A stretch of 64,000 nucleotides of DNA, taken from the NCBI GenBank assembly GCA_963820835.1, contig CAWGBP010000005.1, positions 6,257 through 70,256 of the forward strand, in the 5' to 3' direction. This DNA is from Pirellulales bacterium. Lineage in GTDB: Bacteria > Planctomycetota > Planctomycetia > Pirellulales > JADZDJ01. Shown one piece after another: positions 1-34,712 of the stretch; positions within the stretch are counted from its first letter, which is position 1; each line of letters begins with the position of its first letter. Under the pieces are notes generated by a model that was not told the DNA's origin, did not search any database, and worked only from the letters and a program-made list of their open reading frames with translations. The position numbers and the translations under genes are program-made.

Positions 1-37
1 AACCGACACTTCTGACGATCCAATCGCACGCTTTGTT

Positions 38-2503
38 TTGTGGCGAATTGCACGCGACATAGGAGCCAAAACGGGTGATTTCGAGATTTCAAACCTCGCA
101 ATTGAAAAGATCGACGCAAATTACAAAATCGATACTCTCTCGATGAAATTGGATACTCTAGAGGCGGTTGCCGCGCCAGAAGGAGTTCCAGATTTTCGCA
201 AACTATATCATTCAGACGAAGAGCTGCTGGCCGGGTCTCTCGCAGCCGATCGTTACGATCTTGCCAAGCGCGCTTGCGAAAACCTGACGGAGTTTGCACG
301 GAAACTCGGTGATGACCAATTAGCTTTGAAATCGCGATCTAGCTCTGAAAGGGTCGCTTCACTCTTAGTGTTATATGACGGTGTCAAAGAGGCCGAGAGT
401 GCACTCGAAAAGGACTCCGCGGATGCTAGCGCGAACTTGGTCGTGGGCAAATTTCGATGCTTCGCCAAGGAGCAGTGGGAAATTGGATTACCGTTGTTAG
501 CTCATTCGAGTGATGATGCATTGAATGCAATTTCGAAGCAGGATCTTGCGTCCCCGAAGGACCCGGCGGAACAACTCAAACTTGCGGACCAGTGGTGGGG
601 ATTGGGTGAATCTCGGCAAGGTAATGAGCAGTCAGCGATACAAAGACGTGCTGCATATTGGTACGCACAAGCAGCCCGAAAACTAAATGGCCTAGCAAGA
701 GAAAAGGCCGAAAAACGGGCGGCTTTCCTATCGAGCTCCCAGCCGACTGATACGGAGATTGAAGTTCGCGCTTCTGCTGTACCGGAACCCAAGGCCACGA
801 GAATCAAACCTCCCGATGCGGCAGCTTCCGTCGAGCGTGACGCACAGAACTGTCGAACCGCCAAAGATGGCTTATTGGTGTACAAGCTCTTTCTAGCTGA
901 TGGCCAAGTGAGCGATGACGCCAAGGATCTCGCGCGTAAGCACCTTTCAATTTGGGAAGACAGAGCAGCGAAAGACTATGTACGTCTTGGTCAAAGTTGG
1001 GTCTCCGCCGACACAGCACGGAAGGCACATGATGACGCAGAGAACTTAGTCGGGCAGGCAATCGACCTGTTCGGAACAAATAATGATTCGGCTGCGAAAG
1101 ATCGGCTTGAAAAGGCCAGCAAGCTCGACCCTGAGGCAATCAGAGCAGATTTTCTACTTGGGCTCGTGTACGTCTTGGACGACCGAAATTATAAGGTTGG
1201 TAAATCTCACTTTTCTGAATGTGTTCGACGAGAGCCCCAGGATGTTTGCTCCCTTAACAATCTGGCATTAATAGAGACTCTGACAAATGACCACGATAAC
1301 GCGCTGAAGCACTTACGCGCTGCGGTTGGTGTGGATCCACGCGCACCCGAACTCGCGAGTAACGTGCAACGAATTTTGGATCAGGTGGGAAAAAAGAACC
1401 TTTCAATTCCGTCCTCTTGTGCGAGTGGCTACGCTGACCTGTACAGTACTCTGGTCAAAGAATCTAAATCGAGCACAAAGGGTAGCAGGGGCTGGCTATA
1501 CATGCTCCCCCTGATGCCCGCCAAGCCTTCGGACGATAAGGTTGCATTAAAGTTACCAACGCTACCTGCGAATGCAGTGATTTTCGGTGGCGGTTCAGGA
1601 TTTGTGGTATCCCCACATTTCATTCTCACAAACCGGCACGTTGCAGAAAACGCCAGCGGGTTTCTTGTGAGCGATCCTGAAAATCCAGACAAACCGAAGA
1701 TGACCGCTACCCTAGGGGCGCTATCGGAAGATCACGATTTGGCTCTTCTTCGTTGCGACGAGCTGAACGCACCACCGGTGCATCTTGACGCAAAGTTTCC
1801 CGGTCGCGGCACGGACATCATGCTACTCGGCTACCCTGAGTTTTTTGAGATTGGAACTGGATTGAAATCGACTCGCGGTTCTATTGTTGGTCTTCCCGAG
1901 GCCAGCAATGAGAATATGTGCCTCTACGACGCCACTTCAAATCATGGAAATAGCGGCGGACCAGTATCGGATAACCGCGGAAATGTCATTGCAATTCATC
2001 GTGCGGGGTTCACGTTTAGTGGAAAACTGGGCGGTGGTATTCCGATTGAGCAAGCCATTAGTTTTATTTCGGATCACGTTCCGGGTTTTGGCGAAACAAC
2101 GCCAAATAAGAAAACTCTGGAGTGGTCGCAGGTTGACGCACTCGTAAGCAAATCGACTGTGTTGATACTTTGCGAGGCCGCCAAAGATCAGCGAGTGGCG
2201 ATTGGCGGAAAGATGCATTCGGAATCGATTGAAGATCGAGCGTGTGTCGCATGTCGCGGTACGGGCATGGTCCCCTGCCCAGACTGCCACGGACACGGAA
2301 CTATCACTGTTGCAAAACAAGTGGATCGTGGACCGAATCCTTTGAACGGCATTGAAATGTATGGGACCGAACACTTTCAGGAGAACTGTCGAACGTGCGG
2401 TGGCACTGGCAATGTGCGCTGCCAGGTTTGTGACGGCCGTGGAGTCGACGGCGCTCCGGATTCAAGACAGCGCACAGAGGCAGTGCGCCAGCTTAAACCG
2501 TGA
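38..2503 (+). CDS. Multidomain protein: N-terminal TPR-like helical region, trypsin-like (S1/DegP-type) serine protease domain, C-terminal DnaJ-type CxxCxGxG zinc-finger repeats
   Basis: Protease core motifs GGGSGFVVSPHFILTNRHV (His), DLALL (Asp) and HGNSGGPV (Ser). The C-terminus carries four CxxC motifs (CVACRGTG, CPDCHGHG, CRTCGGTG, CQVCDGRG) like the DnaJ CR domain. Confidence 0.6.
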   Translation: MWRIARDIGAKTGDFEISNLAIEKIDANYKIDTLSMKLDTLEAVAAPEGVPDFRKLYHSDEELLAGSLAADRYDLAKRACENLTEFARKLGDDQLALKSRSSSERVASLLVLYDGVKEAESALEKDSADASANLVVGKFRCFAKEQWEIGLPLLAHSSDDALNAISKQDLASPKDPAEQLKLADQWWGLGESRQGNEQSAIQRRAAYWYAQAARKLNGLAREKAEKRAAFLSSSQPTDTEIEVRASAVPEPKATRIKPPDAAASVERDAQNCRTAKDGLLVYKLFLADGQVSDDAKDLARKHLSIWEDRAAKDYVRLGQSWVSADTARKAHDDAENLVGQAIDLFGTNNDSAAKDRLEKASKLDPEAIRADFLLGLVYVLDDRNYKVGKSHFSECVRREPQDVCSLNNLALIETLTNDHDNALKHLRAAVGVDPRAPELASNVQRILDQVGKKNLSIPSSCASGYADLYSTLVKESKSSTKGSRGWLYMLPLMPAKPSDDKVALKLPTLPANAVIFGGGSGFVVSPHFILTNRHVAENASGFLVSDPENPDKPKMTATLGALSEDHDLALLRCDELNAPPVHLDAKFPGRGTDIMLLGYPEFFEIGTGLKSTRGSIVGLPEASNENMCLYDATSNHGNSGGPVSDNRGNVIAIHRAGFTFSGKLGGGIPIEQAISFISDHVPGFGETTPNKKTLEWSQVDALVSKSTVLILCEAAKDQRVAIGGKMHSESIEDRACVACRGTGMVPCPDCHGHGTITVAKQVDRGPNPLNGIEMYGTEHFQENCRTCGGTGNVRCQVCDGRGVDGAPDSRQRTEAVRQLKP

Positions 2504-2665
2504 GCGATGAATTGCGCCAGCGCCTGAGCCTCCGTCAAGCCGGCAAGCGTCACAATCACCTGATCTCGCCAAATGCATTTGTGTCGCGTTAAACTGCCAG
2601 CCTGGCCGTCAATTCGCTCTGCTCTAGTGGTTGCTTCTCTTTCCATCGCCGTTTACTAAGTTCAG

Positions 2666-4192
2666 GTGCGCTACTGGGCGCGGGCTTTATGCGGCGTGCT
2701 TCAAACGCTGAGAAAAACAATGATTTCAATGAAGAAGGGCGTTCGAATTCGAGAATTCGTGCTTGAGGACGAAATTGGCGTCGGGGGAAATTCCATTGTT
2801 TGGAAAGCAGTCGACACGAACCTTGGCAGAAACGTTGCGATCAAATGCCCCCTCAGAAAAGGCAGCAATCTGTCCGAAACGGAGATGGAAGAGTTCAAAC
2901 GAGAGGCACAACGCGGTGCGAAGCTCGTCCACTCGAATATCGTTCAGGTATATCAGATTATCGAAGAATCAAATGACCTATTTCTTGTTTTGGAATTTGT
3001 TGATGGAACCTCGCTTTGGGACGATTTTCGCAGTCGCGCTAAGGACGGAACGGCGCTGCCGCTGGATCAGTCGATTTCGATTCTGAAGGAGATCCTGCTA
3101 GGGCTTTCTTATGCTCATGCGCAGGGAATTTGCCACCGTGATCTCAAGCCAGCAAATATTCTGTTGACGAACAGTAGGATTCCAAAAATCGCTGACTTGG
3201 GAATCGCTCGGGCATTGTCCCCTGAACCCGTCGACGCACATGCTCATCCGTCACAGCGCCAAGGTGGAACTGGAACACCAGAATTTATGTCGCCGGAGCA
3301 AGCACGGGGAGAGGACGCTGATTTCCAATCGGATCTCTTCATGGTCGGAATCATTGGCTACTTGCTACTTTCTGGACGTCATCCATTTGCACATCCGAGC
3401 GGATTGTTTCAGGTGAGTGAGTTGTTGCTGGACGATAACTATTCTCCAGCTCCACTACGTGCATCCCCGAGTATGGCATCTGGCGATGCGAAATTGTTTC
3501 GAGAGTATGCTGCCGTGGTTGTTAGGTTGTTAGAGCGTGAACGTGCCTCGAGGTTCGCATCCGCCAGTGACGCGGTGCGAGCGATCGATGCCGTTACTCC
3601 ATTCGTGGACTGCCCGAGCTGCGGCAGCCGTCTTCCTGAAGCAAGTAGATTTTGCAGCCAGTGTGGAGAACCCATTCCCGGCGGTGCGCCGCTGTCGACG
3701 GGTTCCGTCTTACAAGGACGAACCGCTCGGGAATTGGACGACGAGGGTTTTCGATTAGCGCGGCAGCAGCGCTGGGATGAAGCGATTGTCCACTACCGCC
3801 GTTCCATCGAAATGGACGGTAAATTCCAGCGGACGTACTGGAATCTATCTTACGCACTCAATCACATTGGAGAGTATCCGAAAGCGATCGACATTGCCAC
3901 GCGAGGACTCGGGTTACCGCAAAATGAACCGCGTCATACTGCAAATCTGCTAGGTGTTCGCGCGTTCTCGTACGGCAAGTTGAAGAAGTACGATGACGCG
4001 ATCCACGATCTTACCCAAGCCATCGAAATTGACTCTAATGGGATCGAGCATCTGTATTCCCGTGGAAGAGTATATGCCTACAATGGCGATGTTGCATCGG
4101 CCCGCGCCGATGCCCGCAGTGTGCTTGCACGAAATCCGGAGCACTCGGGGGCTCTGCGATTATTGAGCGAGATAGGAGACGATCAAGCGTAA
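2666..4192 (+). CDS. Ser/Thr protein kinase with central zinc-ribbon and C-terminal TPR repeats
   Basis: Kinase motifs GVGGNSIVWKA...AIK, HRDLKPANILL, DLGIA and SPE. A zinc ribbon CPSCGSRL...CSQCGE follows, then TPR-like repeats (WNLSYAL, YSRGRVY). The true start may be the internal Met at about 2720. Confidence 0.8.
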   Translation: MRYWARALCGVLQTLRKTMISMKKGVRIREFVLEDEIGVGGNSIVWKAVDTNLGRNVAIKCPLRKGSNLSETEMEEFKREAQRGAKLVHSNIVQVYQIIEESNDLFLVLEFVDGTSLWDDFRSRAKDGTALPLDQSISILKEILLGLSYAHAQGICHRDLKPANILLTNSRIPKIADLGIARALSPEPVDAHAHPSQRQGGTGTPEFMSPEQARGEDADFQSDLFMVGIIGYLLLSGRHPFAHPSGLFQVSELLLDDNYSPAPLRASPSMASGDAKLFREYAAVVVRLLERERASRFASASDAVRAIDAVTPFVDCPSCGSRLPEASRFCSQCGEPIPGGAPLSTGSVLQGRTARELDDEGFRLARQQRWDEAIVHYRRSIEMDGKFQRTYWNLSYALNHIGEYPKAIDIATRGLGLPQNEPRHTANLLGVRAFSYGKLKKYDDAIHDLTQAIEIDSNGIEHLYSRGRVYAYNGDVASARADARSVLARNPEHSGALRLLSEIGDDQA

Positions 4193-4851
4193 CCACCCCA
4201 AATTGACGAGTCATGACCGCGCTGGCGAAACAGTCACAGTATCCAATGTTCGTCGGGCTCGCATGGGGCGGGAATGGCCTACAGCGACCCACGCTTTGCG
4301 ACGGGCGAGCTGTCCGGCAGTGGCGAGTGGACTGATCCGTCGATCAGCATGAGAAAGGCATATTCTGTCGCATTAGCGCCCAGTCCATGTGAACTTGCGT
4401 GGATGCCTTGAAGTGATGAAGCTCCCAGAGGACGGCGCGCCATCCAAGGTTGCCGATAGTTCGGAGCCACGGACTGACTCGGCGAGTGATCCGTACCCTG
4501 GCCCAACACGGTGGTGGTGTCCGAAAGTGCTATGGATCGATTCCCCAACTTAACAGGCTTCTTAACGAATCTCGCCCGAGGGTTGCCCTTGGTCATTCGC
4601 TTTGACCTGAGGAGGGCCTACGGCACTCGCTGGGCATCACGGGTAAAACCGGCGACATTACAGCTTCGAATGCGCTATGAGAGCATCGAGACGACCCTGA
4701 AATATTATGTAGCGCAATCGGCAGACGATGTAGCTAGTGAGCTTTGGAACGACAGGAGTTCAAAGTGTGGCGGAAACCGTTCAAGTGATATATGTGCGAA
4801 AACGAATCCGGCGGAACGGCGGTTAACGAGTGGATTGTATTAAACATCGGT

Positions 4852-6777
4852 TTACGGCTTTGCCATCGCTGGTTTTTGGTCTTCCGCATGGGTCGGTTCT
4901 CCAGAGCCGTTCTGGACTTCGGTGGCTTTCTGGGCTTCGACAGCTTTCTGGGCTTCGACAGCTTTTTGGGCTTCGGCGGCCTTCTGAGCTTCGGCGAGCT
5001 TGGTGAAAGCCGATAGGAAGTTTTCCGTCGATTTAACTTGTCCAGATAGCGTAGTAATCAAGGGGTCGGAGGAGCCAGCGACGATTTCTTTCAGTCGGTT
5101 AAGCAAGTCAGTTGCACGATCAGTTTGCTGCATACTTGCATAAATCTCGACCTCGCGCAACATTGCCCATATCGTCATATCCCGGCCAGGGGTGCCCTCA
5201 GGTCCGAAGTCGGAAATGAGTTTGTCAAAGGCTTCGATTGCTTTGGCCCGGTCGAGGACTTGATGCGTGACACCAATGTAGTAACGACCAATTGCGGAGT
5301 ACCTCCGTAGGCTCGAAGGATCGGCGTCGAAACGTGCCACTAATGCATCGAAGATTATGGCTGCTGCTGCATTTTCGTGCTTTACGGAATGCACATAATA
5401 GCCCTTGCAGTACATTGAGCTGCCGATGCGAGCCAGGTATTTCTCATCGGGCGCAACGTCATTGGCGCTCGTTGCAATTCGATTAAGTAAGTCGCATGCC
5501 TCGGTCACACGCTGTAGCGACTGAACTAGGTTCGGCCTTAGCACGTCATTCAGCGCCTGCATTAAAGCTTCGCACTGCCGACTATCAAAATGGGAAACGT
5601 CGAGCGCCAGGGCACGGTCGATAACTTCTTGGTAGGCGGATCGTCGTAACGAATCTCGAATTTGTTCGAGTGACTCTTCATTGGCTTCCCGTTGAAATTT
5701 CTCGAGTGTGTTGGCGTGGGAGATACGTGAGATTACGCCATTGATACCGTATAGATCTCCCGGTGTGTCGTCTTTATCGTGTATGACGGAACGTTTAAGG
5801 TGATCTGCATAAAAGCCAAGAGGGTCGGTGGTAAGTTTTGGGGCAGCCAGCGAGAAACCCTGGACGAATGCGTCCATAACCTGCTGGGCACTCAATGTCG
5901 CTTCTGACGGCCGAATGTCCACTGGGGTACTAATTCCATTTGACTCGGTTCGATTCGGTTCCTCTTTACGAGTGCCGTCTGGTAGGATGAAGCGGACATC
6001 TTGGTGCTCTCTAAGCCATTGAGGTAACGATTCGTAATCCGCGTAGCGGTAGCAAAACCAATAGAGTCGGTAGGCGAGACCCTGGCCGCTGAGGCGTCTG
6101 CGTAGAGCTGACATGATGACGTCCTCTTCCCATCCAGAATAGCCGACAACAAGCGGCGAACGCTTTGCGAGGATGCGATCGAGAAGGCTGGCCATTGTTG
6201 CGGTAGTGTTGGCTGACATGGCCGATCGATTGAGGACCTCATCCTTCAAGTTGCAACAATCGTAAAACCAGTAGGTTCCGTGCACATGGATGATTTGAAC
6301 AATGTCGTGTCGCTCTGGGTCGATTCGTACAGCTGTTTGCGGATGGTCACATTGCGTGAAGTATTTTCCGAACAAGTTGAGGCCGCCGGCAAGCTGGTCA
6401 TCGAAATTCGGGGTGACTATGATGTCAGCCAACTGTCCTGATTCGAGTATGTGAGCCAATCTTAAATTGGCCGGCGATACCGGTTTGTTGTGAATTAGCT
6501 CATGCAAATATGTGCGCCGTTCGGCCGCATGGGGATATGCACTGTCAAACCAATGTGAGTAGTTGTCCATCGTTGTTCTTCGTGTGTGATCCTTAACTAC
6601 TCCGTCTGAGATAGCTTTTGCTTGGCAATGCTCAGTTATTTCTGCCGCTAATGGGATTGGTGGGGACGAAATTCCGGCACCAACGATAAAGAAAAATGGG
6701 CGGAAATCGCTATCAGTGTGCGGTGCGCACCCTTGGCGGATTTCTCGAATAGCGGTTTTAAGGTCGATGTTGTGCAT
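4852..6777 (-). CDS. SIR2-like (SIR2_2 / DSR-ThsA-type) domain protein with long C-terminal alpha-helical region and AEAQK repeat tail
   Basis: N-terminal motifs FFFIVGAGISSPP (Gly-rich NAD site), IVTPNFDDQL (TxNxD) and IHVHGTYWF (catalytic HG). There is no P-loop. The C-terminal ~350 aa are helical. Confidence 0.65.
   Translation of the reverse strand: MHNIDLKTAIREIRQGCAPHTDSDFRPFFFIVGAGISSPPIPLAAEITEHCQAKAISDGVVKDHTRRTTMDNYSHWFDSAYPHAAERRTYLHELIHNKPVSPANLRLAHILESGQLADIIVTPNFDDQLAGGLNLFGKYFTQCDHPQTAVRIDPERHDIVQIIHVHGTYWFYDCCNLKDEVLNRSAMSANTTATMASLLDRILAKRSPLVVGYSGWEEDVIMSALRRRLSGQGLAYRLYWFCYRYADYESLPQWLREHQDVRFILPDGTRKEEPNRTESNGISTPVDIRPSEATLSAQQVMDAFVQGFSLAAPKLTTDPLGFYADHLKRSVIHDKDDTPGDLYGINGVISRISHANTLEKFQREANEESLEQIRDSLRRSAYQEVIDRALALDVSHFDSRQCEALMQALNDVLRPNLVQSLQRVTEACDLLNRIATSANDVAPDEKYLARIGSSMYCKGYYVHSVKHENAAAAIIFDALVARFDADPSSLRRYSAIGRYYIGVTHQVLDRAKAIEAFDKLISDFGPEGTPGRDMTIWAMLREVEIYASMQQTDRATDLLNRLKEIVAGSSDPLITTLSGQVKSTENFLSAFTKLAEAQKAAEAQKAVEAQKAVEAQKATEVQNGSGEPTHAEDQKPAMAKP
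4912..5001. repeat. Five tandem 18-bp units (ctgggcttcgacagcttt-like) inside the 3' end of the SIR2-like gene, encoding an (AEAQKA)n tail
   Basis: Direct reading of the DNA: units at 4912, 4930, 4948, 4966 and 4984. The minus-strand protein tail reads KLAEAQKAAEAQKAVEAQKAVEAQKATE. Confidence 0.85.
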
Positions 6778-6810
6778 GGCGGGTCTTGCCAGTAAGGTAC
6801 TTGACCGAAC

Positions 6811-7518
6811 TTACGTCGGAACGTGCCACCATGCGACGCTATCTAGAGCCAGCCGCGACTCCGGGATCAAGCGTTCGACCTGTTCCAACCGGAGAATGTC
6901 AGTGTGTCGTCTTGCAGCTTGAACGGTTTGGTCAAAGTTAGGATTTCGGATGGCGGCTTGCAGTACGTCAAGCGACGCTGTTTTACTCAGGTCGCGTAGC
7001 ATAATTGCATTTTGACAGCCTTGCATAGCTCGTAGCAATTCGTTCGTTGTCTGCGGAAGCCCATTTTTGATAGGAACATGCACGGCAAGTGTCTTATTCT
7101 GACGTTCGACAGCCGCGCCAAAGGCCCACTCAAGCTGCTCATTACCTTGCATTTCCACCCAATACGCCTCTTTGTTTGGCACGTCTACTATGACGAATGC
7201 GGCCGGCACATGGATCTCTCGGAGATAGTATCGGGCCTTTTCAATGCTCAAATCACGGAAGCTAATGGTAGTTCCATTGTCGATAACTTCCAGCTTAAGC
7301 GTTCCCTTTTGCTGTACTTTGAATATGTCTCCACTCGGTTGATCTCCTGCATGCATGAGTTCAATCTCGTAATCGATACCAAAGTCTTCCTGGTCCTGCT
7401 GGTTCCGTGCAACCAGCCTAGACGGTAGCTTGTCTAAAAAGACGCGGTCTGCAGCCCGGCTGATTTCTTTTGGTGTCATTTCTGGGACGGACATCAGTTT
7501 TCGTCCATTTGGCGGCAA
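6811..7518 (-). CDS. Hypothetical protein with PD-(D/E)xK-like core (DUF4365-like), co-operonic with the SIR2-like gene
   Basis: DFGIDYEIEL...GDIFKVQQKGT gives a D..ExE..QxK arrangement. Then ARYYL...PAAFVIVDV...AYWVEMQ. The gene lies 33 nt upstream of the SIR2 gene on the same strand, with an AT-rich putative promoter at 7519-7675. Confidence 0.4.
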   Translation of the reverse strand: MPPNGRKLMSVPEMTPKEISRAADRVFLDKLPSRLVARNQQDQEDFGIDYEIELMHAGDQPSGDIFKVQQKGTLKLEVIDNGTTISFRDLSIEKARYYLREIHVPAAFVIVDVPNKEAYWVEMQGNEQLEWAFGAAVERQNKTLAVHVPIKNGLPQTTNELLRAMQGCQNAIMLRDLSKTASLDVLQAAIRNPNFDQTVQAARRHTDILRLEQVERLIPESRLALDSVAWWHVPT

Positions 7519-7675
7519 TTAAAGCTGGAAGTGCATCGTAATGTGCATCTCTAAACTATTAACCGCCGTTTCGAGAGAATTTTTTTCACGCCGTAAAGGC
7601 ACTCCCGCCTATAAGTAACTTCACGGGATCATCGCATTTCACACAACAATATGACTGGAACCTGGCTTCATGATT

Positions 7676-17260: not shown

Positions 17261-19404
17261 ATCGACACTCGCAATGCGTCCTTTTCGTATTTTTTCCACT
17301 CCTTCTTACCGGCAACGCCAGTTGCAAGTGTAATCTTTGAGCACGCCCATTGTTTAATAGCCTCTGCAACTTTTTTATCGCCTGCCTTGTCAATGGCAGA
17401 TTTTAATTTAGATATATCGTGTTGTAGTCTAAGGGCGTAGAAGAAACGTCCAGTTTCTCCAAAGGTGAACCGATCAAACTCGTTCTTGGTTTCCCCGGTG
17501 CAAATCCTACTCAAAGTCTTCTGGGCATCCTGGATCTCGTCATCCGCGTCCTGCGCCCGCCAGTCTTCTAGCCTTCTTATTTTCTCCGCTGTTTGCGGAG
17601 GTCCCATATGTACCAATAGGTCGAAGCGACCTGAACGAATAATGGCTCCGTCAAAACTACCGATGTAGTTTGTGGCCATGAAATAGATGCACCTCCCACC
17701 TTGATTAAGTCGCTGTAGTTTTGGAAGCATGCTGGTAGTAAGTAACTGCTGGGAGACATCGATTGGATTAGTTGAAGCATCGGTTTCGGCAACATCACGA
17801 CTCTGAACAAGCGCGTCCATTTCGTCAAATAGGACGACTACGCCATACAAGTCCTGAAGGTCCTCGAAAACCTCAGAAACCTTGTTGTAAATACCTTCCA
17901 AGCCCGCACTGAGAAAGTCCGAGGGCGATAGTTCAACAAAATACCAACCTAAACGTTTAGCCACCGCTGCGCAGAGCGTTGTTTTGGAAGTTCCTGGCGG
18001 ACCAAAGAGAACCGCAGAATGCCGACACTTCAGGTATAGCCGCGGTGATAGAGATGCATTTTCTAAGAGTTGCTCTGTTGGCTCAAGAATTTCTTTGTCG
18101 ATTAGTTTTTTAACTGAATTTCGATCGTCAACTATGTCGCATTCTTTTGCCTTAAGAAAATGAAAATCCAGGTATTTGTCCCACGCGGCCTTTTCTTTTG
18201 GCCAAGATCGCGCTCGATTTTGAAATTTTGCCAGAACTGTGTCCCTGATGTGAATTGACAATTGATTGTTGAGACGAGCCAAGAACATATGCGCGACGCC
18301 GGTTGGCCAAGACTCTGGCTCGCCACGGCGCATGGCTTGAATGTCGCCACCGGCGTTCCAACCATAAAAGACCTTTCCATTGTGACGAAACTCAAGTCTG
18401 TTGAATTCCAACCAGGTAAGTGCCTTGTCAAGACGCCGCAAAGTATCTGGATCAGAAAGGATCTCCGGAAACTCGGATACGACTGCTTCAAGTACTTCGA
18501 AATGCCAACAATGGTTGGGACCAGATGTCGGATAGTGAAAGATGGGAAAGTATTTCTCCCAAACACCTGATTGCTCGTTTTGCTTTTCAAAAAAAGCCTT
18601 GATCCCTCCCCTCAACTCAGACTCTGATGGAAATTGCGTTTTCTTCAAAGCTTCGTAGAGTTCAACTGATTTTTCTGCAAATCTTTGTAGAGATCGGCAT
18701 AAGCAAGCTGCCATTGCCAACGCAACGGGATCCATCATCGCCTGATACTCGGCTGCAATGAGTGAGTGTTGTCGTCTGAATTCTGCGGCCGCCCAATTGG
18801 CGAGTTCCTGTGCGGAATCGCTTTCCAACCTGACACAAAGTTTGGACGCTGCGTCGACGATCCAAAAACCAATTGTCGGTGATGCGGGGAAAGGCGATAG
18901 GGCGAATGTGGCATCAGGGACTTTCAAATATTCTTCAAGGATTGCGATGATGGATTTGCGGTTGCAGATTCGCCATGCATCAGGAACGTCAGGTTCATCG
19001 TTGTACGATCGATATTCCTCTGAAACGTTTTTTTCACTTAATACTCGAGCCGCACGCATAAATCCTGCCGCCCTCGCCACAACAGCTACGGTGAACGCGT
19101 TATTTGCCGGAAGGCCGCCTGTGTCCCATGGTTGACCCATTATTATTGAGAATGCTTGTAAAGCTTTCTTTGTCGGACGAAAAACCATGGATGGTATTCC
19201 TGCAACGCAGAATGCCATCCAAGCCGTACAAGTCGGTGTAACGCTAGGAGCACTTAATGGCGATGGTGGCCTGCTTGGAAGACGATAAAAAAAGGTGGAC
19301 CCCTCGGGGTCTCGAAACGCCGCATGGTCGTCGACGAGAGTACTTCCAAGGTTGCGTGTACGTTCGCGGAGCTGACGCAACGTCTTAAGTAGCTTAATTG
19401 ACAT
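17254..19404 (-). CDS. AAA+ ATPase (classic AAA clade) with ~460-aa N-terminal domain of unknown function
   Basis: C-terminal half: Walker A LFGPPGTSKTT, Walker B VVLFDEMDAL and a sensor/arginine-finger region. The start overlaps the upstream PurA-like gene by 11 nt. Confidence 0.7.
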   Translation of the reverse strand: MSIKLLKTLRQLRERTRNLGSTLVDDHAAFRDPEGSTFFYRLPSRPPSPLSAPSVTPTCTAWMAFCVAGIPSMVFRPTKKALQAFSIIMGQPWDTGGLPANNAFTVAVVARAAGFMRAARVLSEKNVSEEYRSYNDEPDVPDAWRICNRKSIIAILEEYLKVPDATFALSPFPASPTIGFWIVDAASKLCVRLESDSAQELANWAAAEFRRQHSLIAAEYQAMMDPVALAMAACLCRSLQRFAEKSVELYEALKKTQFPSESELRGGIKAFFEKQNEQSGVWEKYFPIFHYPTSGPNHCWHFEVLEAVVSEFPEILSDPDTLRRLDKALTWLEFNRLEFRHNGKVFYGWNAGGDIQAMRRGEPESWPTGVAHMFLARLNNQLSIHIRDTVLAKFQNRARSWPKEKAAWDKYLDFHFLKAKECDIVDDRNSVKKLIDKEILEPTEQLLENASLSPRLYLKCRHSAVLFGPPGTSKTTLCAAVAKRLGWYFVELSPSDFLSAGLEGIYNKVSEVFEDLQDLYGVVVLFDEMDALVQSRDVAETDASTNPIDVSQQLLTTSMLPKLQRLNQGGRCIYFMATNYIGSFDGAIIRSGRFDLLVHMGPPQTAEKIRRLEDWRAQDADDEIQDAQKTLSRICTGETKNEFDRFTFGETGRFFYALRLQHDISKLKSAIDKAGDKKVAEAIKQWACSKITLATGVAGKKEWKKYEKDALRVSIQ

Positions 19405-20452
19405 TAGCTACCTCTCTGGAGCATTCGTTGGCCAGCGAGATTGCATCGAATGTACCAAAGCCAGTACCAACCCAATCGATTGGTGCTCGTAACTCGGCTT
19501 TAAGAAGTGAGAGAAAGTCGACGGCCTTCGAAGTGAGTGTAGCCAAACTTTCAGCGCCGCGATTGGCATAGTCCAATCGGTCGAGGCCCATAACCGCAAT
19601 GGAAGTTGGCTTGTTATAATCGAACGCCTTTCGCACCAATTCTAGATCGAACATTGCCACCCGACGGAGCTTTTTCGTAACTGAGGTGTATTCCGGCTCA
19701 ACCGTCGGTGCGCCCGATATTTCTTGCACATACTTCCAATTGATTTCATTCGCAATTGGGCCGCTATTACCTCCAACGCGAATCGGAAATGTTCGGATAA
19801 CCATTACAATTTCGCTAACATCACGCGGTGAAATTCCCACCTCAGCAGCGAACGCGGCCGCGGTCGTATCTTTGGAAGTCACGTATGGGTAATCCGGGCC
19901 ATGAAGCAAAGAAAGGCCAAATCCCTGTGTTCCTTCCACGATTACATTTCTTCTTTGGCGGATTAAGTCGTGAACAAGTGGTGCGACCGGCTCGATTCGA
20001 GCAACGCGTGCGATCAATTGTGAATTTGCCGCTAGAACCGGTGTAGATCGAAGCAGTCGCCTGGATGATGCACTTCCAGTACCCGAACCCGTACTTGCAA
20101 TTGACCGAGTCAGTGGTGATTCGTGGACCTTGTCAGCTTCTGAAATTGTCGCGGCTCGTGGATCAACAATTACGCGTGACCGCGTAATCCCAAGATCGGT
20201 TATTTCGTCTACCAGAACAGATTCGTCGACAACCGCACCTGCTGCAATTGCCACAATTGCATCCGAAATTGCAACAGACGAGGGCAAATGCCGGAGGATC
20301 TGATCGGTGAAGCCGACGGACGTTGTATGTCCTGAATTCGGCCCTCCGCACCGAACGACGCATGAAATTGGCCGCGTGCGTGAAAGGAGAGCAACAACTT
20401 TGCCCTTGCCTTCCGATCCGTATTGTCCACCAACAACTATGGTCACTGGCAT
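19394..20452 (-). CDS. Short (352 aa) adenylosuccinate-synthetase-family enzyme (archaeal-PurA / PurZ-like size) with non-canonical P-loop GSEGKGK
   Basis: Motifs match PurA: GGQYGSEGKGKV for QWGDEGKGK, GGPNSGHT for GGHNAGHT, and EGTQGFGLSLLHGPDYPYVTSKDTT for [24 protein letters not shown]. The catalytic Asp13 equivalent is replaced by Ser. It is ~80 aa shorter than bacterial PurA. Confidence 0.7.
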   Translation of the reverse strand: MPVTIVVGGQYGSEGKGKVVALLSRTRPISCVVRCGGPNSGHTTSVGFTDQILRHLPSSVAISDAIVAIAAGAVVDESVLVDEITDLGITRSRVIVDPRAATISEADKVHESPLTRSIASTGSGTGSASSRRLLRSTPVLAANSQLIARVARIEPVAPLVHDLIRQRRNVIVEGTQGFGLSLLHGPDYPYVTSKDTTAAAFAAEVGISPRDVSEIVMVIRTFPIRVGGNSGPIANEINWKYVQEISGAPTVEPEYTSVTKKLRRVAMFDLELVRKAFDYNKPTSIAVMGLDRLDYANRGAESLATLTSKAVDFLSLLKAELRAPIDWVGTGFGTFDAISLANECSREVANVN

Positions 20453-20704
20453 CCGAGAGGCTTTCGTCTAGAGCTATTTATCAGACGCTTTTTGCGCAAG
20501 ATAGCCTATCGCTGGTTGGCAAATCGTAAAACCCCACTTGAAATCCGTTGGTGTTCGAAGAGCGTCCATGGTTGCTTCCCGATTCTACTCAACACGACTG
20601 CACTTCGCCCCATCACCAGATTCTGAAAGCTCCCCGCTAAGCCGGCCGTTCAACAAGCGCTGAGCATTCTTCCTTCAGATTCGTCGGGCTCACTCGTAAT
20701 ACAG

Positions 20705-21499
20705 CTATTTCCCTCCCCACCACCGGGCGCGCTCCTGAAAGAAATGTTCGTGCGAGTCAGCTTCATCCTCGGCCGTTAAAACCTTGGTCACAAGTGCGTC
20801 CTCCGGCTTCTGCATGCGGTTTAGCCACTTCGAAAAACCCTCTGGGTTGAATGACACTTTTTCGGCAATTGAGAGAGCGCGCTCGAAACGTTCGAAACCG
20901 GGAAGCAGCTTCATAAAAGCAAACGGAGGGATGTGATGGCGGTCGCAAAAAAGCTTCCATCCTTCTGCTTTGATTCGCAATACGAAGCCAGCCGCCAACA
21001 CCCAGTTAAGTCTTTTTTGCCATCGGACAGAGTCACGCAAAAAAGCCTTGCTGGAAAGATTGGTTTCGGTCGTCTCAGCCGCCGACTTGAGATCCCGCAT
21101 TCCTTTCTTGTCCCACTCTCCTAGCCTGCGGCATTCCTCGTCCAATCGAACGGCAGCGTCAAACAGTTCAAAAGAAATCATGTTGTTAAGCTCCTGGAGT
21201 GCGTGGCAATACGGAGAGTGGTCGAGGACTGATTGATGAACTTCCTTGCCCGCACTCGATAGTCGACCCTGTTCAATTTCGTCACCGCGCGCACCTGCAG
21301 CAACAATAAGGAAGTAGCGCTCTTCGGGAGTTAGACGATCGTAATCACCAGCAAGAACTTTGGTATCCATGGTTAATTCCCGTTCGATGGTTAATGGTTT
21401 AATTCGCGGAAAACACTCGCTTGCGTTTGTTGAAAGACTTACAGCACCTGATTTCAACCGTTCTTCACAGAAATGGAACGGGTGAAGCGGTACCATCAT
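20705..21499 (-). CDS. Hypothetical protein (third gene of a small minus-strand operon reading inward from the att-like site)
   Basis: No recognisable domain. It overlaps the upstream ORF by 4 nt. Confidence 0.4.
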   Translation of the reverse strand: MMVPLHPFHFCEERLKSGAVSLSTNASECFPRIKPLTIERELTMDTKVLAGDYDRLTPEERYFLIVAAGARGDEIEQGRLSSAGKEVHQSVLDHSPYCHALQELNNMISFELFDAAVRLDEECRRLGEWDKKGMRDLKSAAETTETNLSSKAFLRDSVRWQKRLNWVLAAGFVLRIKAEGWKLFCDRHHIPPFAFMKLLPGFERFERALSIAEKVSFNPEGFSKWLNRMQKPEDALVTKVLTAEDEADSHEHFFQERARWWGGK

Positions 21500-21888
21500 T
21501 TTTTTGATTCGTTTCTGCTCTGCAGGATGCCCTGGAGAGTTTCCAGTCTTCCGCTGATCACACCGACGCCGATCGCGCGCAGCAGAGCGTCCGCAAGCGA
21601 GGCCGATAAGCGTGATTTCTCCGACACCGGCAAATCCGACCGAGCAACTTGTTGCAATTGCCCAGACAGCACTTGGATGACCTCGTCGGCACCCATCGCC
21701 GCGCTGCCAGAAACAGCGGCTTGGCTTTCCACGAGATCCGCCTCACTTAGCCCGCGGAAACTCTGTTCCAATAGTGCCACAGCCGCCCGCACACGATCGC
21801 TGTCGCGTCGACCTAGACTGGCAACAGCCACCAGCGTGTCGACGGCCTGTCCGGTGGCCGCTTGAATACGACCCACGGCAGATTCCAC
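21496..21888 (-). CDS. Hypothetical small protein
   Basis: Coupled by 4-nt and 1-nt overlaps with the flanking ORFs. Helical and Ala/Leu-rich. Confidence 0.35.
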   Translation of the reverse strand: MESAVGRIQAATGQAVDTLVAVASLGRRDSDRVRAAVALLEQSFRGLSEADLVESQAAVSGSAAMGADEVIQVLSGQLQQVARSDLPVSEKSRLSASLADALLRAIGVGVISGRLETLQGILQSRNESKK

Positions 21889-22259
21889 TAATTGGCGGCG
21901 AGCCCGACGGTAAGCCGCGCAAAAGCCGGCCTGTTTAGCCAGCGGTAAAGCGTCGCTTCGCTAATCCCGGCTTTCGTAGCGGCAGCGCTGTAGGTACGCT
22001 CAGTCAACAACGCAGCAATCAGTGCTTCCTGCTTGGCCATCAGTTTTTGGCCATGTCCTCGAAGCTGCTCGCTCCTGCTAACACTGGCTGCGGCACCCAA
22101 AGCCGCTTGTTCTAAGTCAGCCCCAGGGATGGAATCGCCGCCACTACCGGTCGCGGACTCCGCGGCGGCACCGCCGCTTGGCACCGGCACGTCGTGGTTC
22201 GTAGCGTTGGGTCCGTCCAGGTTCGAGGCGTCTTGCGACGAATTTGTTTGGCTAGACAC
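21888..22259 (-). CDS. HTH-domain protein (terminase-small-subunit / excisionase-like helix-turn-helix at C-terminus)
   Basis: ALLTERTYSAAATKAGISEATLYRWL is a classic HTH of mobile-element regulators. It lies ~200 nt from the tRNA-like att fragment. Confidence 0.45.
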   Translation of the reverse strand: MSSQTNSSQDASNLDGPNATNHDVPVPSGGAAAESATGSGGDSIPGADLEQAALGAAASVSRSEQLRGHGQKLMAKQEALIAALLTERTYSAAATKAGISEATLYRWLNRPAFARLTVGLAAN

Positions 22260-22387
22260 GAGGACCTCCCGCCGCTTGCGCGAGAATAAGAATGGCCTCT
22301 CTGACCGAAGCAGGGAGGCTATGCCAGCGGCTTGCGATTAGTTGCAGGTCAGAATCCGCCGAGCTCTCATTGGCCTTTTTCGCTTCG

Positions 22388-22411
22388 CTGGTGCAAACCC
22401 TGGTGCAAACC
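22388..22411. repeat. Perfect 12-bp tandem duplication ctggtgcaaacc x2 just upstream of the tRNA-like fragment
   Basis: Seen directly in the sequence. Confidence 0.9.
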
Positions 22412-22463
22412 GGCGCAGGCGATGATATAACTTCTTGCTTGTCTGGACTTAGAACTTCGGCGC

Positions 22464-22510
22464 TCGGATTGTGGATCTGGGGGTCACGGGTTCAAGTCCC
22501 GTTAGCCACC
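22464..22510 (+). tRNA. Partial tRNA: 3' fragment (anticodon arm GUG = His, variable loop, T-arm GGTTCAAGTCC, 3' acceptor strand TAGCCAC, discriminator C). No matching 5' acceptor strand or D-arm is present, so this is a candidate att site remnant.
   Basis: Folded by hand. The anticodon stem tcgga/tctgg has 2 GU pairs and the loop ttGTGga has U33 and R37. The T stem is acggg/cccgt with loop ttcaagt. No gtggcta 5' strand lies within 100 nt upstream. Confidence 0.45.
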
Positions 22511-22717
22511 CTGGTTATAATTCTCGCCCGATTCTTCTATCGGACTGTCGGCGCATTATTCAAGTGTCGATTGATGCCAGCTAAAATTGGGCGATAGACG
22601 ACTCGCCAAAAGTAGTCATGACCCGTGCGCCGAACGGAGTGCTGATGTAGGGGCCTCTCATATGGATTTCGCAGCACGACGAATCCGGCCGCCGCATTCT
22701 TAATTGTTCGCTTCCAA

Positions 22718-23328
22718 TTGGACTTTTCGATGTGGCCGAATCAGCAAGAAACGATTGAGTTATTGGATCGAGCACAGCGAGGCAGCCCGGAGGCTGTGAA
22801 CCGGCTGATGGCTCGGCATCGCGATTCGCTGCACAGGATGGTGGCTTGCCGGCTGAATCAGGGCGTGGCAAAGCGCGTCGATGCGAGCGATGTTGTGCAG
22901 GACGCATTGCTGACGGCAAGCCGCCGATTGACTGAGTATCTGCAAAATCCTGGCATGCCGTTCCACGCCTGGCTGCGGCAATTGGCGCGCGACCGGCTGG
23001 TCGATGTTTATCGGCGGGAATTGGCCGAGAAGCGCGATCTAGGCGCGAACGGGCGGTTGCCGACTGCGAGCGATCGTCGCTTAGCCCTTTTTCACAATTG
23101 CGCGATGCGCAGTTGACCCCCGCGGCACAACTGCTCGAGAAGGAATTCGAGCTGCGATTTGAGCAGGCCGTGGAGCGGTTAGATGACGATGTGCGCGAGA
23201 TTATAATGATGCGCCACGGGGAAAGGCTTTCCAATTCGCAAGTCGCCGAGTTACTGGGGATCAGTGAAGCAGCGGCGGGAATGAGATACTTAAGGGCGCT
23301 ACGTCAATTGAAATCGGCGCTCAACTAG
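22718..23328 (+). CDS. ECF-type sigma-70 factor, split by a 1-nt frameshift near 23095 (region 2 in one frame, region 4 in the next)
   Basis: Region 2: DVVQDALLTASRRL...FHAWLRQLARDRLVDVYRRE. Region 4: LRDAQ...ERLDDDVREIIMMRHGERLSNSQVAELLGISEAAAGMRYLRALRQL. Confidence 0.75.
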
Positions 23329-23340
23329 AGAGACGGCTCT

Positions 23341-25097: not shown

Positions 25098-25124
25098 CAG
25101 GGTGTCCAGAATTTCGGACCGATA

Positions 25125-26481: not shown

Positions 26482-26572
26482 GGCTGGCTCCTATGTGTTT
26501 GTCAGATTTCTGCGTTGAATTAGTGGATGAACTTATCTGAGGCAGGATTTAGCAACGGTCGCAACGCGACGA

Positions 26573-27487: not shown

Positions 27488-27563
27488 ATCGAAGATCCCT
27501 TTGATTGAGTGAATTTATTTTTGAAGTGGATAGAAGGCGAATCGGCGACCAAACGCAAATCAA

Positions 27564-34525: not shown

Positions 34526-34712
34526 GACATTCTTTCCATAGTTGCGTATGGATTAATAGAACTGCAACATTATTCTACTCCATGAAGCGGTCTGGAGTGA
34601 GTTGCTGATGGAAGTGGAATAGGACGATTGCAAAGTCCGGGGTCTGGAACATTTTTTGGCCATTTGACTTATCTATTTCAGACAAGCCATGCCCAAAAAC
34701 ATGTTCCTGACC

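What the first reader, a model, noticed from the sequence alone, without database searches (positions are those of the whole stretch)
1..22510. Mosaic, lower-GC defence/mobile island ending exactly at a tRNA-His 3' fragment
Composition left of 22464 is patchy, while 22600 onward is uniformly higher. Spot windows left of 22464: ~43-50% for 1-7600; 57-63% for the R-M locus; 43-53% for 14997-21100, with 52-60% patches in 21500-21660. Spot windows right of 22500: 50-60% in 22741-22920 and 57-60% at 38 kb and 54 kb. The boundary is a 47-nt piece that folds as the anticodon arm (GUG), T-arm and 3' acceptor strand of a tRNA-His, with the right discriminator C. No 5' half is present. tRNA-targeting integrases are well known to leave such a fragment at the far end of an integrated element. 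A perfect 12-bp tandem duplication sits 50 nt upstream, and a three-gene operon with a terminase/excisionase-type HTH protein reads inward from it. The island packs SIR2, Type I R-M and nuclease/kinase/ATPase genes, which is typical defence-island content. No integrase is inside the window, so the intact tRNA-His and int are probably beyond the left edge, or the element is a decayed remnant.
Basis: partly seen in the sequence, partly recalled or inferred. Interest (0 to 1): 0.7.

Follow-up and report, generated by a model that had tools for sequence, protein, structure and literature searches.

The report
tRNA-His scar bounding a defence island
An orphaned 45-base tail of a histidine tRNA gene marks the right-hand edge of at least 22 kb of foreign, defence-gene-rich DNA in a Pirellulales (planctomycete) genome; this is an ordinary kind of genomic island, but it carries an undescribed gene cassette built around a PurZ-type purine enzyme.

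Summary
The core observation holds. Window 22467-22511 (45 nt) is identical to the 3' end of intact tRNA-His(GUG) genes in six Pirellulales loci. No 5' half is present, and neither ARAGORN nor Rfam finds a tRNA. A second genome carries the same orphan piece with the same 5' boundary, which points to a site-specific, anticodon-loop-type att scar. DNA to the left is 52.5% GC against 57.7% to the right, and it differs in tetranucleotide use in every 2-kb window. A conserved gene block (ECF sigma, Ser/Thr kinase, PspA and others) starts about 135-200 nt right of the fragment in four relatives. Nothing from the left 22 kb lies upstream of that block in any of them. Cargo: a complete Type I R-M system, SIR2 plus DUF4365, protease/kinase TPR proteins, and a three-gene module also found next to an integrase in a prophage-like element elsewhere. 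Not shown: the integrase and the regenerated tRNA-His. Neither is in the window, and the rest of the 95-kb contig could not be fetched. Verdict: a new member of a well-known kind, a tDNA-bounded genomic island. The most interesting item is cargo: a PurZ-type (Asp13->Ser) synthetase + AAA+ ATPase + DUF429/NMP-kinase cassette. It recurs next to R-M genes in two other planctomycete genomes.

The parts
22467..22511 (+). Orphan 3' fragment of tRNA-His(GUG), 45 nt; proposed attR core and right edge of the island
   Evidence: It is 100% identical to the 3' 45 nt of intact tRNA-His genes in L003-L008. No tRNA was called. The same orphan with the same 5' boundary occurs in L001.
22388..22411 (.). Perfect 12-bp tandem duplication (CTGGTGCAAACC x2) in the 208-nt spacer between the HTH gene and the tRNA fragment; function unknown
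   Evidence: TRF score 48 with 100% matches; the repeat finder family D1.
20705..22259 (-). Three-gene module: HTH protein (21888-22259, 123 aa), 130-aa protein (21496-21888), 264-aa all-helical protein (20705-21499). It is associated with mobile elements.
   Evidence: The HTH hits are weak. The 264-aa family has 68 homologues, all unannotated. The whole module is conserved in L010 at 9156-10675, inside a prophage-like element (RusA, DUF669, helicase, Prim-Pol, ParB-MTase) and directly next to a Phage_integrase gene. The AlphaFold model (pLDDT 79.5) has no significant PDB match.
19394..20452 (-). Short (352 aa) PurZ-type adenylosuccinate-synthetase homologue; P-loop reads GGQYGSEGKG, with Ser in place of PurA's catalytic Asp13
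   Evidence: Pfam Adenylsucc_synt E=2.7e-47. NCBIfam PRK04293 285 bits and PurZ 212 bits, both below their cut-offs. PDB alignment to P. horikoshii PurA. Ser is the PurZ signature according to PMC12884076. 118 of the 120 closest homologues carry GSEGKG. None of the 126 nearest 50%-identity representatives with a readable motif has Asp.
17254..19404 (-). AAA+ ATPase (716 aa; one CDC48/VCP-like AAA module at residues 435-613; N-terminal ~430 aa unknown); overlaps the PurZ-type gene by 11 nt
   Evidence: Pfam AAA E=3e-21. PDB best match is VCP-like ATPase. The gene pair is conserved in L012 (51% id) and L013 (42% id) with an 8-nt overlap.
14997..16664 (+). RNase_H_2 (PolB-type 3'-5' exonuclease-like) + DUF429 fusion protein, 555 aa
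   Evidence: Pfam hits. The DUF429 half has homologues beside the PurZ-type/AAA+ pair in L012 (49% id) and L013 (47% id).
16670..17260 (+). Adenylate/NMP-kinase-like P-loop protein, 196 aa
   Evidence: Pfam ADK and AAA_17/18. NCBIfam adk subfamily 89.6 bits, below cut-off. The equivalent kinase domain is fused to DUF429 in L012 and L013 and to PurZ-type domains in P0369, P0382, P0393, P0405, P0437 and P0440.
7676..14857 (-). Complete Type I restriction-modification operon: hsdM 13208-14857, hsdS 11511-12932, two unannotated ORFs (11123-11554, 10606-11232), hsdR 7676-10609
   Evidence: Pfam N6_Mtase/HsdM_N, Methylase_S and HSDR_N/SWI2_SNF2/ResIII. PADLOC MTase_I E=3e-208, Specificity_I E=6e-99, REase_I E=9e-57.
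4852..7518 (-). DUF4365 (restriction-endonuclease-like) protein 6811-7518 and SIR2-domain/TPR protein 4852-6777; candidate two-gene defence pair
   Evidence: Pfam SIR2_2 and DUF4365. PADLOC hits to Argonaute-associated SIR2 and REase modules and to PDC-M02A. No Argonaute is present.
38..4192 (+). Trypsin-like protease-TPR-zinc-finger protein (38-2503) and Ser/Thr kinase-zinc-ribbon-TPR protein (2666-4192); whether they belong to the island is unknown
   Evidence: Pfam and PADLOC. The PD-T4-6 kinase hits are not diagnostic: the core kinase at 23451-25097 scores higher. Composition is island-like.
22646..28157 (.). Start of the conserved chromosomal flank (not island): ECF sigma factor (split over two frames, 22646-23113 and 22936-23325), Ser/Thr kinase 23451-25097, 236-aa protein, PspA, 304-aa protein, 197-aa protein
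   Evidence: The same gene order occurs in four relatives. tblastn homology starts at the sigma gene. Composition is core-like.

Best explanation
Window 22467-22511 is the displaced 3' end of the chromosomal tRNA-His(GUG) gene. It is the attR-side scar of site-specific integration by a tyrosine-integrase-type element whose crossover lies in or next to the anticodon loop. In this well-known mechanism the element carries a copy of the tRNA's 3' ~45 nt. Integration regenerates an intact tRNA at the integrase-proximal end, and pushes the original 3' end, still joined to its native downstream flank, to the far end. So the DNA upstream of the fragment (at least window 1-22466) is horizontally acquired, and the chromosome proper resumes at 22512. 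The acquired DNA is a mosaic of separately conserved modules: protease/kinase TPR genes, SIR2+DUF4365, Type I R-M, a PurZ-type/AAA+/DUF429/kinase cassette, and a phage-like three-gene module. It therefore behaves as a defence island built up at a tRNA integration hotspot. Shown: the fragment's identity and boundary, the absence of a full tRNA, the compositional step, the synteny break, and the gene content. Inferred: the integrase, the regenerated tRNA-His beyond the left edge, and whether the island can still move.
For: The fragment is identical over 45 nt to intact tRNA-His genes of six Pirellulales loci, and nothing upstream resembles the tRNA. No tRNA is called. L001 carries an independent orphan with the same 5' boundary and also no tRNA. 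The boundary, 2 nt before the anticodon loop, and the 45-nt length match the anticodon-centred attP class. According to Islander, 3760 of 3919 mapped islands leave a 3' tDNA fragment and 2083 have anticodon-centred sites (PMC4383910). A 21.4-kb archaeal island flanked by 44-bp tRNA repeats is a close parallel (PMC9897764). GC is 52.5% left and 57.7% right. All eleven 2-kb windows left of 22 kb lie 24.9-35.1 from the core tetranucleotide profile, against 15.3-25.8 on the right. The sigma-kinase-PspA block is conserved in four relatives, and homology starts at the sigma gene; upstream content differs in each, and one relative has a different conflict system (bpX/MoxR) there. The orientation is the one the model requires: island 5' of a same-sense 3' fragment. 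The att-proximal three-gene module recurs next to an integrase in a prophage-like element. Defence content.
Against: No integrase and no second att copy lie within the window. No intact tRNA-His locus recovered from relatives has an integrase in the readable flank, so no occupied site with both ends has been seen. No viral contig carries the att sequence. In the two relatives with DNA (L009, L011) no tRNA lies upstream of the sigma block. The tRNA-His/sigma adjacency is therefore not ancestral at that distance. In the closest relative by DNA identity (L006), tRNA-His sits 2.1 kb from genes that lie 13.8 kb right of the fragment here. The GC step is modest (5 points), and the R-M block is only 3-4 points below the core.
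Confidence: 0.7

Rival explanations
1. The scar is old and unrelated to most of the present left-hand DNA. It would come from a small, long-decayed phage-like element, at most the three-gene module. The R-M, SIR2 and PurZ-type cassettes would then have arrived later by other routes, and no integrase or matching attL survives.
For: The left region is compositionally patchy (50.3% to 55.2% GC between blocks). Its modules are separately conserved elsewhere: the PurZ-type cassette in L012 and L013 without the three-gene module, and the three-gene module in L010 without the cassette. No integrase lies in the window. One relative has a different conflict system at the equivalent position, suggesting a general variable hotspot.
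Against: The fragment is still 45/45 identical to functional tRNA-His genes, and a very old non-functional scar would be expected to have drifted. Tandem accretion at one tDNA is itself part of the integrase model. The whole 22 kb is compositionally foreign, right up to the scar.
Confidence: 0.2
2. The native tRNA-His gene was simply truncated by a non-site-specific insertion or deletion that removed its 5' half, leaving a pseudogene. No integrase was involved.
For: Only one end is visible, and no integrase or direct repeat is seen in 64 kb.
Against: An unrelated genome (L001) has an orphan starting at exactly the same base. The break lies at the anticodon stem-loop junction, the position typical of class-A att sites. 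Random truncation would not reproduce this boundary.
Confidence: 0.07
3. Metagenome assembly artefact: two different genomes or strains were joined through the conserved tRNA-His sequence, which would give the compositional step.
For: The source is a 95-kb contig known only from NCBI/ENA assemblies, apparently a MAG. tRNA sequences are identical across many Pirellulales.
Against: A join through a shared intact tRNA would keep a full tRNA, but here the 5' half is absent. Left-hand genes have planctomycete best hits: the PurZ-type protein is 61-65% identical to Pirellulaceae and Symmachiella proteins, and the cassette recurs in planctomycete genomes.
Confidence: 0.03

Closest known systems
tDNA-integrated genomic islands as catalogued by Islander (tyrosine-integrase elements; anticodon-centred 'A' attP class)
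   Same: A 3' tDNA fragment of ~45 nt in the same sense as the tRNA, beginning at the anticodon stem-loop. Foreign composition on its 5' side and native flank on its 3' side. Cargo unrelated to mobility.
   Different: The regenerated tDNA and the integrase gene, both required by Islander's filters, are not visible. The island is at least 22.5 kb, but its true length is unknown.
PYG1 island of Pyrococcus yayanosii CH1 (21.4 kb, flanked by 44-bp tRNA-Gln direct repeats; PMC9897764)
   Same: Almost the same repeat length (44 vs 45 nt) and a comparable island size. The partial tRNA copy marks one end.
   Different: PYG1 is archaeal, uses a different tRNA, and has both ends mapped.
Bacterial defence islands (clusters of R-M and other anti-phage genes at variable hotspots)
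   Same: A complete Type I R-M system beside SIR2, DUF4365, AAA+ ATPase and nuclease genes. A relative has a different conflict system (bpX/MoxR) at the same chromosomal junction.
   Different: Only the Type I R-M system is a recognised complete system. The other modules match no complete PADLOC system.
Phage PurZ / PurZ0 (2-aminoadenine 'Z-genome' biosynthesis)
   Same: The island's 352-aa enzyme has the PurZ-defining Asp13->Ser change and the short archaeal-type architecture. Relatives are fused to NMP kinases or to a dCTP-deaminase/dUTPase-like domain, echoing the phage pathway's need for kinases and DutZ.
   Different: It is chromosomal in planctomycetes, not in a phage. It scores below the NCBIfam PurZ cut-off (212 vs 300 bits). 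It is closer to P. horikoshii PurA (172 bits) than to PurZ0 (126) or PurZ (102). Its partners are an AAA+ ATPase and a DUF429 protein, not DatZ, MazZ or DpoZ. Sixteen viral loci with 32-44%-identical homologues lack those partners.
RADAR (RdrA AAA+ ATPase + RdrB adenosine deaminase)
   Same: By analogy only: a large AAA+ ATPase paired with a purine-nucleotide-modifying enzyme in defence islands.
   Different: No RdrA or RdrB model hit was found. The ATPase matches only generic AAA/IetA/TRIP13 models. The enzyme family is also different.

Membership tests
tDNA-integrated genomic island (Islander criteria) | A fragment of a tRNA gene identical or near-identical to the 3' end of the cognate tDNA | tested here: met
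   45/45 nt identity to intact tRNA-His genes of six related loci. The cognate gene of the same replicon could not be examined.
tDNA-integrated genomic island (Islander criteria) | An intact cognate tDNA in the same replicon, same orientation, at the other end of the island | not testable with these tools
   No tRNA in the window. The source contig is 95,421 nt, but look-ups of its proteins return nothing.
tDNA-integrated genomic island (Islander criteria) | A tyrosine integrase gene (PF00589) inside the island, next to the intact tDNA | tested here: inconclusive
   No integrase domain in any sizeable ORF of 1-22.5 kb. The expected position is beyond the left edge.
tDNA-integrated genomic island (Islander criteria) | Fragment oriented so that the island lies on its 5' side and native flank on its 3' side | tested here: met
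   Foreign composition on the left and core-like on the right. The conserved syntenic block starts just right of the fragment.
tDNA-integrated genomic island (Islander criteria) | Island absent from related genomes (empty site) | tested here: inconclusive
   Island genes are absent upstream of the sigma block in four relatives, but those relatives have no tRNA-His there either. A scan for the exact empty or occupied junction in metagenomes found nothing. Intact tRNA-His loci in other MAGs show no integrase in the readable flank, and their flanks are not syntenic with the window, except partly in L006.
Type I restriction-modification system | hsdR, hsdM and hsdS genes together | tested here: met
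   All three lie in one minus-strand operon at 7676-14857.
Prophage | Structural, packaging and lysis genes | tested here: not met
   No capsid, tail, portal, large terminase or lysis hits in 1-22.5 kb. No DNA match to 50,697 phage records.
PurZ (succino-amino-deoxyadenylate synthase of Z-genome phages) | Ser replacing the catalytic Asp13 of PurA | tested here: met
   GGQYGSEGKG aligned to PurA GGQWGDEGKG. The rule comes from PMC12884076.
PurZ (succino-amino-deoxyadenylate synthase of Z-genome phages) | Score above the curated PurZ family threshold | tested here: not met
   NF038379 gives 212.1 bits against a cut-off of 300.
PurZ (succino-amino-deoxyadenylate synthase of Z-genome phages) | Phage genome context with DatZ/MazZ/DutZ and a Z-specific polymerase | tested here: not met
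   The neighbours are an AAA+ ATPase, exo-DUF429 and an NMP-kinase-like protein. The chromosomal context is the same in L012 and L013.
PurZ (succino-amino-deoxyadenylate synthase of Z-genome phages) | Use of dGMP as substrate | not testable with these tools
   This needs an enzyme assay.
PD-T4-6 (single-gene Ser/Thr-kinase defence) | A specific match beyond the generic kinase domain | tested here: not met
   The island kinase hits PD-T4-6 at E=3e-63. The conserved chromosomal kinase at 23451-25097 hits it better, E=1e-82, so the match is to the kinase fold only.

The most novel reading that the evidence does not exclude
The segment 14997-20452 may be a previously undescribed nucleotide-based immune (or DNA-modifying) system. 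Its parts are a PurZ-type (Asp13->Ser) adenylosuccinate-synthetase homologue translationally coupled to a large AAA+ ATPase, plus a nuclease/PHP-DUF429 protein with an NMP-kinase domain or partner. The proposal is that it converts a guanine nucleotide into a succinylated or 2-aminoadenine-type nucleotide and phosphorylates it, to poison or mark DNA during phage attack. The three-part cassette recurs beside R-M genes in two other planctomycete genomes. The Ser-type enzyme family is large (at least 150 clusters at 50% identity), and some members are fused to kinase or dCTP-deaminase-like domains.
Probability: 0.3. Interest if true: 0.75.

Novelty: new member of a known kind. Interest (0 to 1): 0.4.

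Why it matters
The island itself is a textbook case. Its value is practical. It gives a precise right-hand boundary (22511/22512) and a 45-nt att core for a tRNA-His integration hotspot in Pirellulales. Mobile elements and defence systems are barely charted in this group. The cargo matters more. A PurZ-type enzyme, so far tied to phages that replace adenine with 2-aminoadenine, turns up here as a conserved chromosomal cassette with an AAA+ ATPase and a DUF429/kinase protein in defence neighbourhoods. If that cassette is an immune system, bacteria would be using the same chemistry that phages use to evade restriction. That would add a new enzyme class to nucleotide-based immunity.

Tried and rejected
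1. Walking left on the source contig failed. Exact-protein look-ups of four window proteins, including P0001 (100% identical, from the 95,421-nt contig), returned 'not on record'. Cluster look-up gave no accession or name.
2. An empty-site or source search with a 24-nt junction pattern in metagenome contigs gave 0 hits. The 45-nt att pattern there gave only two intact tRNA-His genes.
3. The att pattern has 0 hits in IMG/VR viral contigs, so no candidate attP donor was found.
4. No second, degenerate att copy exists in the window. The best non-self match is 25/45.
5. No integrase lies beside intact tRNA-His genes in L003-L007. The neighbours are Ku, AcrB, an IS transposase, beta-helix proteins and KdpC.
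6. Function of the 264-aa protein of the att-proximal module remains unknown. There are no Pfam, PHROG, NCBIfam or PADLOC hits. The AlphaFold model is all-helical and has no Foldseek PDB match with E<0.5.
7. A promoter scan of 22000-22800 found nothing, and its terminator-like hits and the short repeats found there are near chance level.
8. Megablast of 1-22466 against plasmids and phages gave no match.
9. Rejected: PD-T4-6 membership of the island kinase, because a control with the core kinase scored higher.
10. Rejected: the 'excisionase' label for the HTH protein, because there is no such hit.
11. Rejected: homology between L006's 2-kb tRNA-proximal genes and any window ORF.
12. Literature searches for a PurA/PurZ-like + AAA+ defence system found nothing relevant.


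Full report
**The fragment**

ARAGORN finds no tRNA or tmRNA gene anywhere in the 64-kb window. A permissive Rfam scan of 21500-23500 (E<=10) gives no tRNA-family hit. It returns only weak chance-level matches that pick up the T-arm.

A 31-nt core of the proposed fragment was scanned against one genome per GTDB species and hit six loci. Five are intact tRNA-His(GUG) genes: four in Pirellulales MAGs and one in a Dormibacterota MAG. BLAST and a multiple alignment show that window 22467-22511 (GATTGTGGATCTGGGGGTCACGGGTTCAAGTCCCGTTAGCCACCC, 45 nt) is identical to the 3' end of the four Pirellulales tRNAs. The window sequence upstream of 22467 bears no relation to the D-arm or the 5' acceptor strand. 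Two further intact copies came from a metagenome scan.

It is a tRNA-His 3' end with the correct discriminator C, and it lacks a 5' half. The true identity block is 45 nt at 22467-22511, not 47 nt at 22464-22510. The apparent extra anticodon-stem pairing from 22464-22466 is fortuitous.

**A second orphan**

The sixth genome hit (L001) is not a tRNA either. It carries the same 3' piece, and exact identity starts at the very same base (GATTGTGG...). Two unrelated loci with the same 5' break argue against random truncation. They argue for a defined identity block of an attachment site.

The break lies 2 nt before the anticodon loop. Islander, the standard catalogue of such islands, reports that 3760 of 3919 mapped islands leave a 3' tDNA fragment and that 2083 use an anticodon-centred attP (PMC4383910). 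A 21.4-kb archaeal island flanked by 44-bp tRNA repeats is a near-exact parallel (PMC9897764).

**Composition**

GC is 52.5% for 1-22466 and 57.7% for 22512-64000. Every 2-kb window left of 22 kb lies 24.9-35.1 (Euclidean x1000) from the tetranucleotide profile of 36.3-64 kb. Every window to the right lies 15.3-25.8, and 22-36 kb cannot be told apart from the rest of the right side (Mann-Whitney p about 1e-5 to 7e-5).

The R-M locus is 54.1% GC, not 57-63%. Region 1-7600 is 51.9%, not 43-50%. The minimum is 48.5-49.5% at 16-20 kb.

**Synteny**

The Ser/Thr kinase at 23451-25097 has orthologues at 76-79% identity. Four of their contigs were examined. In all four the order is ECF sigma (207 aa), kinase, 236-aa protein, PspA, ~298-aa protein. 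Two of them add the 197-aa protein, as in window 22646-28157.

In the two contigs with DNA, tblastn homology to the window begins at the sigma gene. Nothing from window 1-22466 occurs in the 6.8-9.4 kb upstream. The upstream neighbours differ in each relative:
- a bpX/bpMoxR conflict system plus an RNase T-like gene;
- DUF2585 and hypothetical genes;
- a molybdo-oxidoreductase, a rhodanese and cNMP-binding proteins;
- NnrU and PfkB.

The junction just left of the sigma gene is therefore a variable spot, and the window's left 22 kb is not conserved chromosome.

There is a caveat. Neither relative with DNA has a tRNA upstream, so at this evolutionary distance the tRNA-His/sigma adjacency is not shared. 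The closest relative by DNA identity (L006, 84% in the phosphorylase gene) has tRNA-His 2.1 kb upstream of the acyl-CoA-dehydrogenase-like and glycogen-phosphorylase genes. Those genes lie 13.8 kb right of the fragment in the window. The intervening genes are unrelated. This gives only loose support that the fragment sits at the native tRNA-His locus.

**Gene content of the left side**

From left to right:
- a trypsin-like protease with TPR repeats and a zinc finger (38-2503);
- a Ser/Thr kinase with a zinc ribbon and TPR repeats (2666-4192);
- a SIR2-domain protein (4852-6777, minus strand) with a DUF4365 nuclease-like partner (6811-7518, minus strand);
- a complete Type I R-M operon (hsdR, two small ORFs, hsdS, hsdM; 7676-14857, minus strand);
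- an RNase_H_2/DUF429 fusion and an NMP-kinase-like gene (14997-17260, plus strand);
- an AAA+ ATPase and a short adenylosuccinate-synthetase homologue (17254-20452, minus strand);
- three small overlapping genes (20705-22259, minus strand).

Only the Type I R-M system is a recognised complete system. The kinase's strong PD-T4-6 hits are not diagnostic, because the conserved chromosomal kinase scores higher. No integrase, transposase or phage structural domain was found in 1-22.5 kb. An IS4 transposase (34831-35946) and a PIN gene (33876-34277) lie on the right side.

**The att-proximal module**

The 264-aa protein has 68 unannotated homologues. In a 6.75-Mb genome (L010) the whole module is conserved: HTH C-terminus fused to the 130-aa protein, then the 264-aa homologue. 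There it sits inside a prophage-like element with DUF669, RusA, a DEAD helicase, Prim-Pol and ParB-methylase genes, directly next to a Phage_integrase gene. This ties the module to integrative elements, although its orientation relative to the element end differs from the window.

Its function stays unknown. The HTH hits are weak. The AlphaFold model of the 264-aa protein (pLDDT 79.5) is all-helical and has no significant PDB neighbour.

The perfect 12-bp tandem duplication at 22388-22411 is confirmed, but nothing assigns it a role.

**What could not be shown**

The other end of the island was not seen. There is no second att copy in the window (best non-self match 25/45). A junction-specific scan of metagenome contigs found nothing. 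The att sequence does not occur in IMG/VR. The intact tRNA-His loci recovered show no integrase in the readable flank. Megablast of the 22 kb against plasmid and phage collections found nothing.

**Interpretation**

The best reading (confidence 0.7) is the classical one. The 45-nt piece is the displaced 3' end of the chromosomal tRNA-His, left at the attR side by site-specific integration with an anticodon-loop crossover. The DNA on its 5' side is acquired, and the chromosome resumes at 22512.

The acquired DNA is a mosaic. The PurZ-type cassette and the three-gene module are each conserved elsewhere without the other, and GC varies by block. Stepwise build-up at a hotspot is as likely as a single element.

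Rivals:
- An old scar unrelated to most of the present cargo (0.2).
- Non-specific truncation of the tRNA (0.07). The identical boundary in L001 argues against it.
- An assembly chimera (0.03). It is unlikely because a join through a shared tRNA would keep the 5' half, and because the left-hand genes have planctomycete affinities.

**The side finding**

The 352-aa synthetase homologue reads GGQYGSEGKG where PurA has G(D)EGKG. Asp13 is 99% conserved in PurA. It is replaced by Ser in all 147 phage PurZ/PurZ0 sequences analysed in PMC12884076.

The protein is nonetheless closer to P. horikoshii PurA (172 bits) than to PurZ0 (126) or PurZ (102). It falls below the NCBIfam PurZ cut-off. Of its 120 closest homologues (55-65% identity, many named planctomycetes), 118 carry GSEGKG. 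Among the 150 nearest 50%-identity cluster representatives, none has Asp at that position: 120 Ser, 5 Gly and 1 Leu among those with a readable motif.

In Pirellulaceae SH501 (L012) and Symmachiella dynata (L013) the gene again overlaps a ~730-aa AAA+ ATPase gene. It is again accompanied by a DUF429 protein, there fused to a P-loop kinase domain and, in L013, to a PHP domain. In both genomes the cassette lies beside MmeI-type R-M genes.

Other family members are fused to one or two NMP-kinase-like domains, or to a dCTP-deaminase-like domain. Sixteen viral contigs encode 32-44%-identical homologues, but without the ATPase or DUF429 partners within 6 kb. PADLOC has no model for the enzyme, and four literature searches found no description of such a system.

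This points to a conserved nucleotide-converting cassette in defence neighbourhoods. Whether it is an immune system, a DNA-modification pathway or a domesticated phage module is open.

**Verdict**

The finding is a genuine but ordinary tDNA-bounded genomic island, a new member of a known kind. Only one end was seen. Its interest comes mainly from the cargo.

Noticed in passing
window 14997-20452; L012 8001-14131; L013 8001-14235: A conserved cassette: a PurZ-type (Asp13->Ser) short adenylosuccinate-synthetase homologue overlapping a ~720-aa AAA+ ATPase gene, plus a DUF429 protein with nuclease/PHP and NMP-kinase domains (fused or adjacent). It lies next to R-M genes in three planctomycete genomes. 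It is absent from PADLOC, and literature searches found no description.
   Followed up: partly
proteins P0369, P0382, P0393, P0405, P0437, P0440, P0320 (homologues of window 19394-20452): Ser-type PurZ-like domains occur fused to one or two N-terminal P-loop NMP-kinase-like domains. In P0320 the fusion is to a C-terminal dCTP-deaminase-like domain. This is a Rosetta-stone link between the synthetase and nucleotide phosphorylation or pool control.
   Followed up: partly
window 22646-23325: The ECF sigma factor immediately right of the tRNA fragment is split over two reading frames (region 2 in 22646-23113, region 4 in 22936-23325). Orthologues are single 207-aa proteins. This is either a frameshift pseudogene or an assembly error.
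   Followed up: partly
L001 7124-7169 (minus strand), contig CAVSZA010000038.1: A MAG labelled Alphaproteobacteria carries the same orphan tRNA-His 3' fragment with the same 5' boundary. It also has a TAGAGC match to the D-stem 4 nt further upstream. Both flanks are high-GC (58-65%). The contig may be mis-binned, or the scar may be old.
   Followed up: partly
contig of P0007 (JGI 3300048101), upstream of its sigma-kinase block: A relative has a complete bpX0-bpX4/bpMoxR conflict system plus an RNase T-like gene at the chromosomal position that the island occupies in the window. This junction is therefore a recurrent site for defence cargo.
   Followed up: no
window 33876-35946: A PIN-domain gene (33876-34277, minus strand) and an IS4-family DDE transposase (34831-35946) lie in the otherwise core-like right side. 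They sit just before the acyl-CoA-dehydrogenase-like and glycogen-phosphorylase genes, which in L006 lie 2.1 kb from tRNA-His.
   Followed up: no
window 4910-5001: An 18-nt tandem repeat (5.1 copies, 82% matches) lies inside the 3' end of the SIR2-domain gene. It encodes a short repeated peptide near the C-terminus.
   Followed up: no
window 10606-11554: Two ORFs (208 aa and 143 aa) are inserted between hsdR and hsdS of the Type I R-M operon. Neither has any Pfam, PHROG, NCBIfam or PADLOC hit.
   Followed up: no
L010 10694-11326: The integrase next to the conserved three-gene module in the prophage-like element is only 210 aa, short for a tyrosine integrase. It abuts a 4089-aa RHS-repeat gene. 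No tRNA lies at that end.
   Followed up: no
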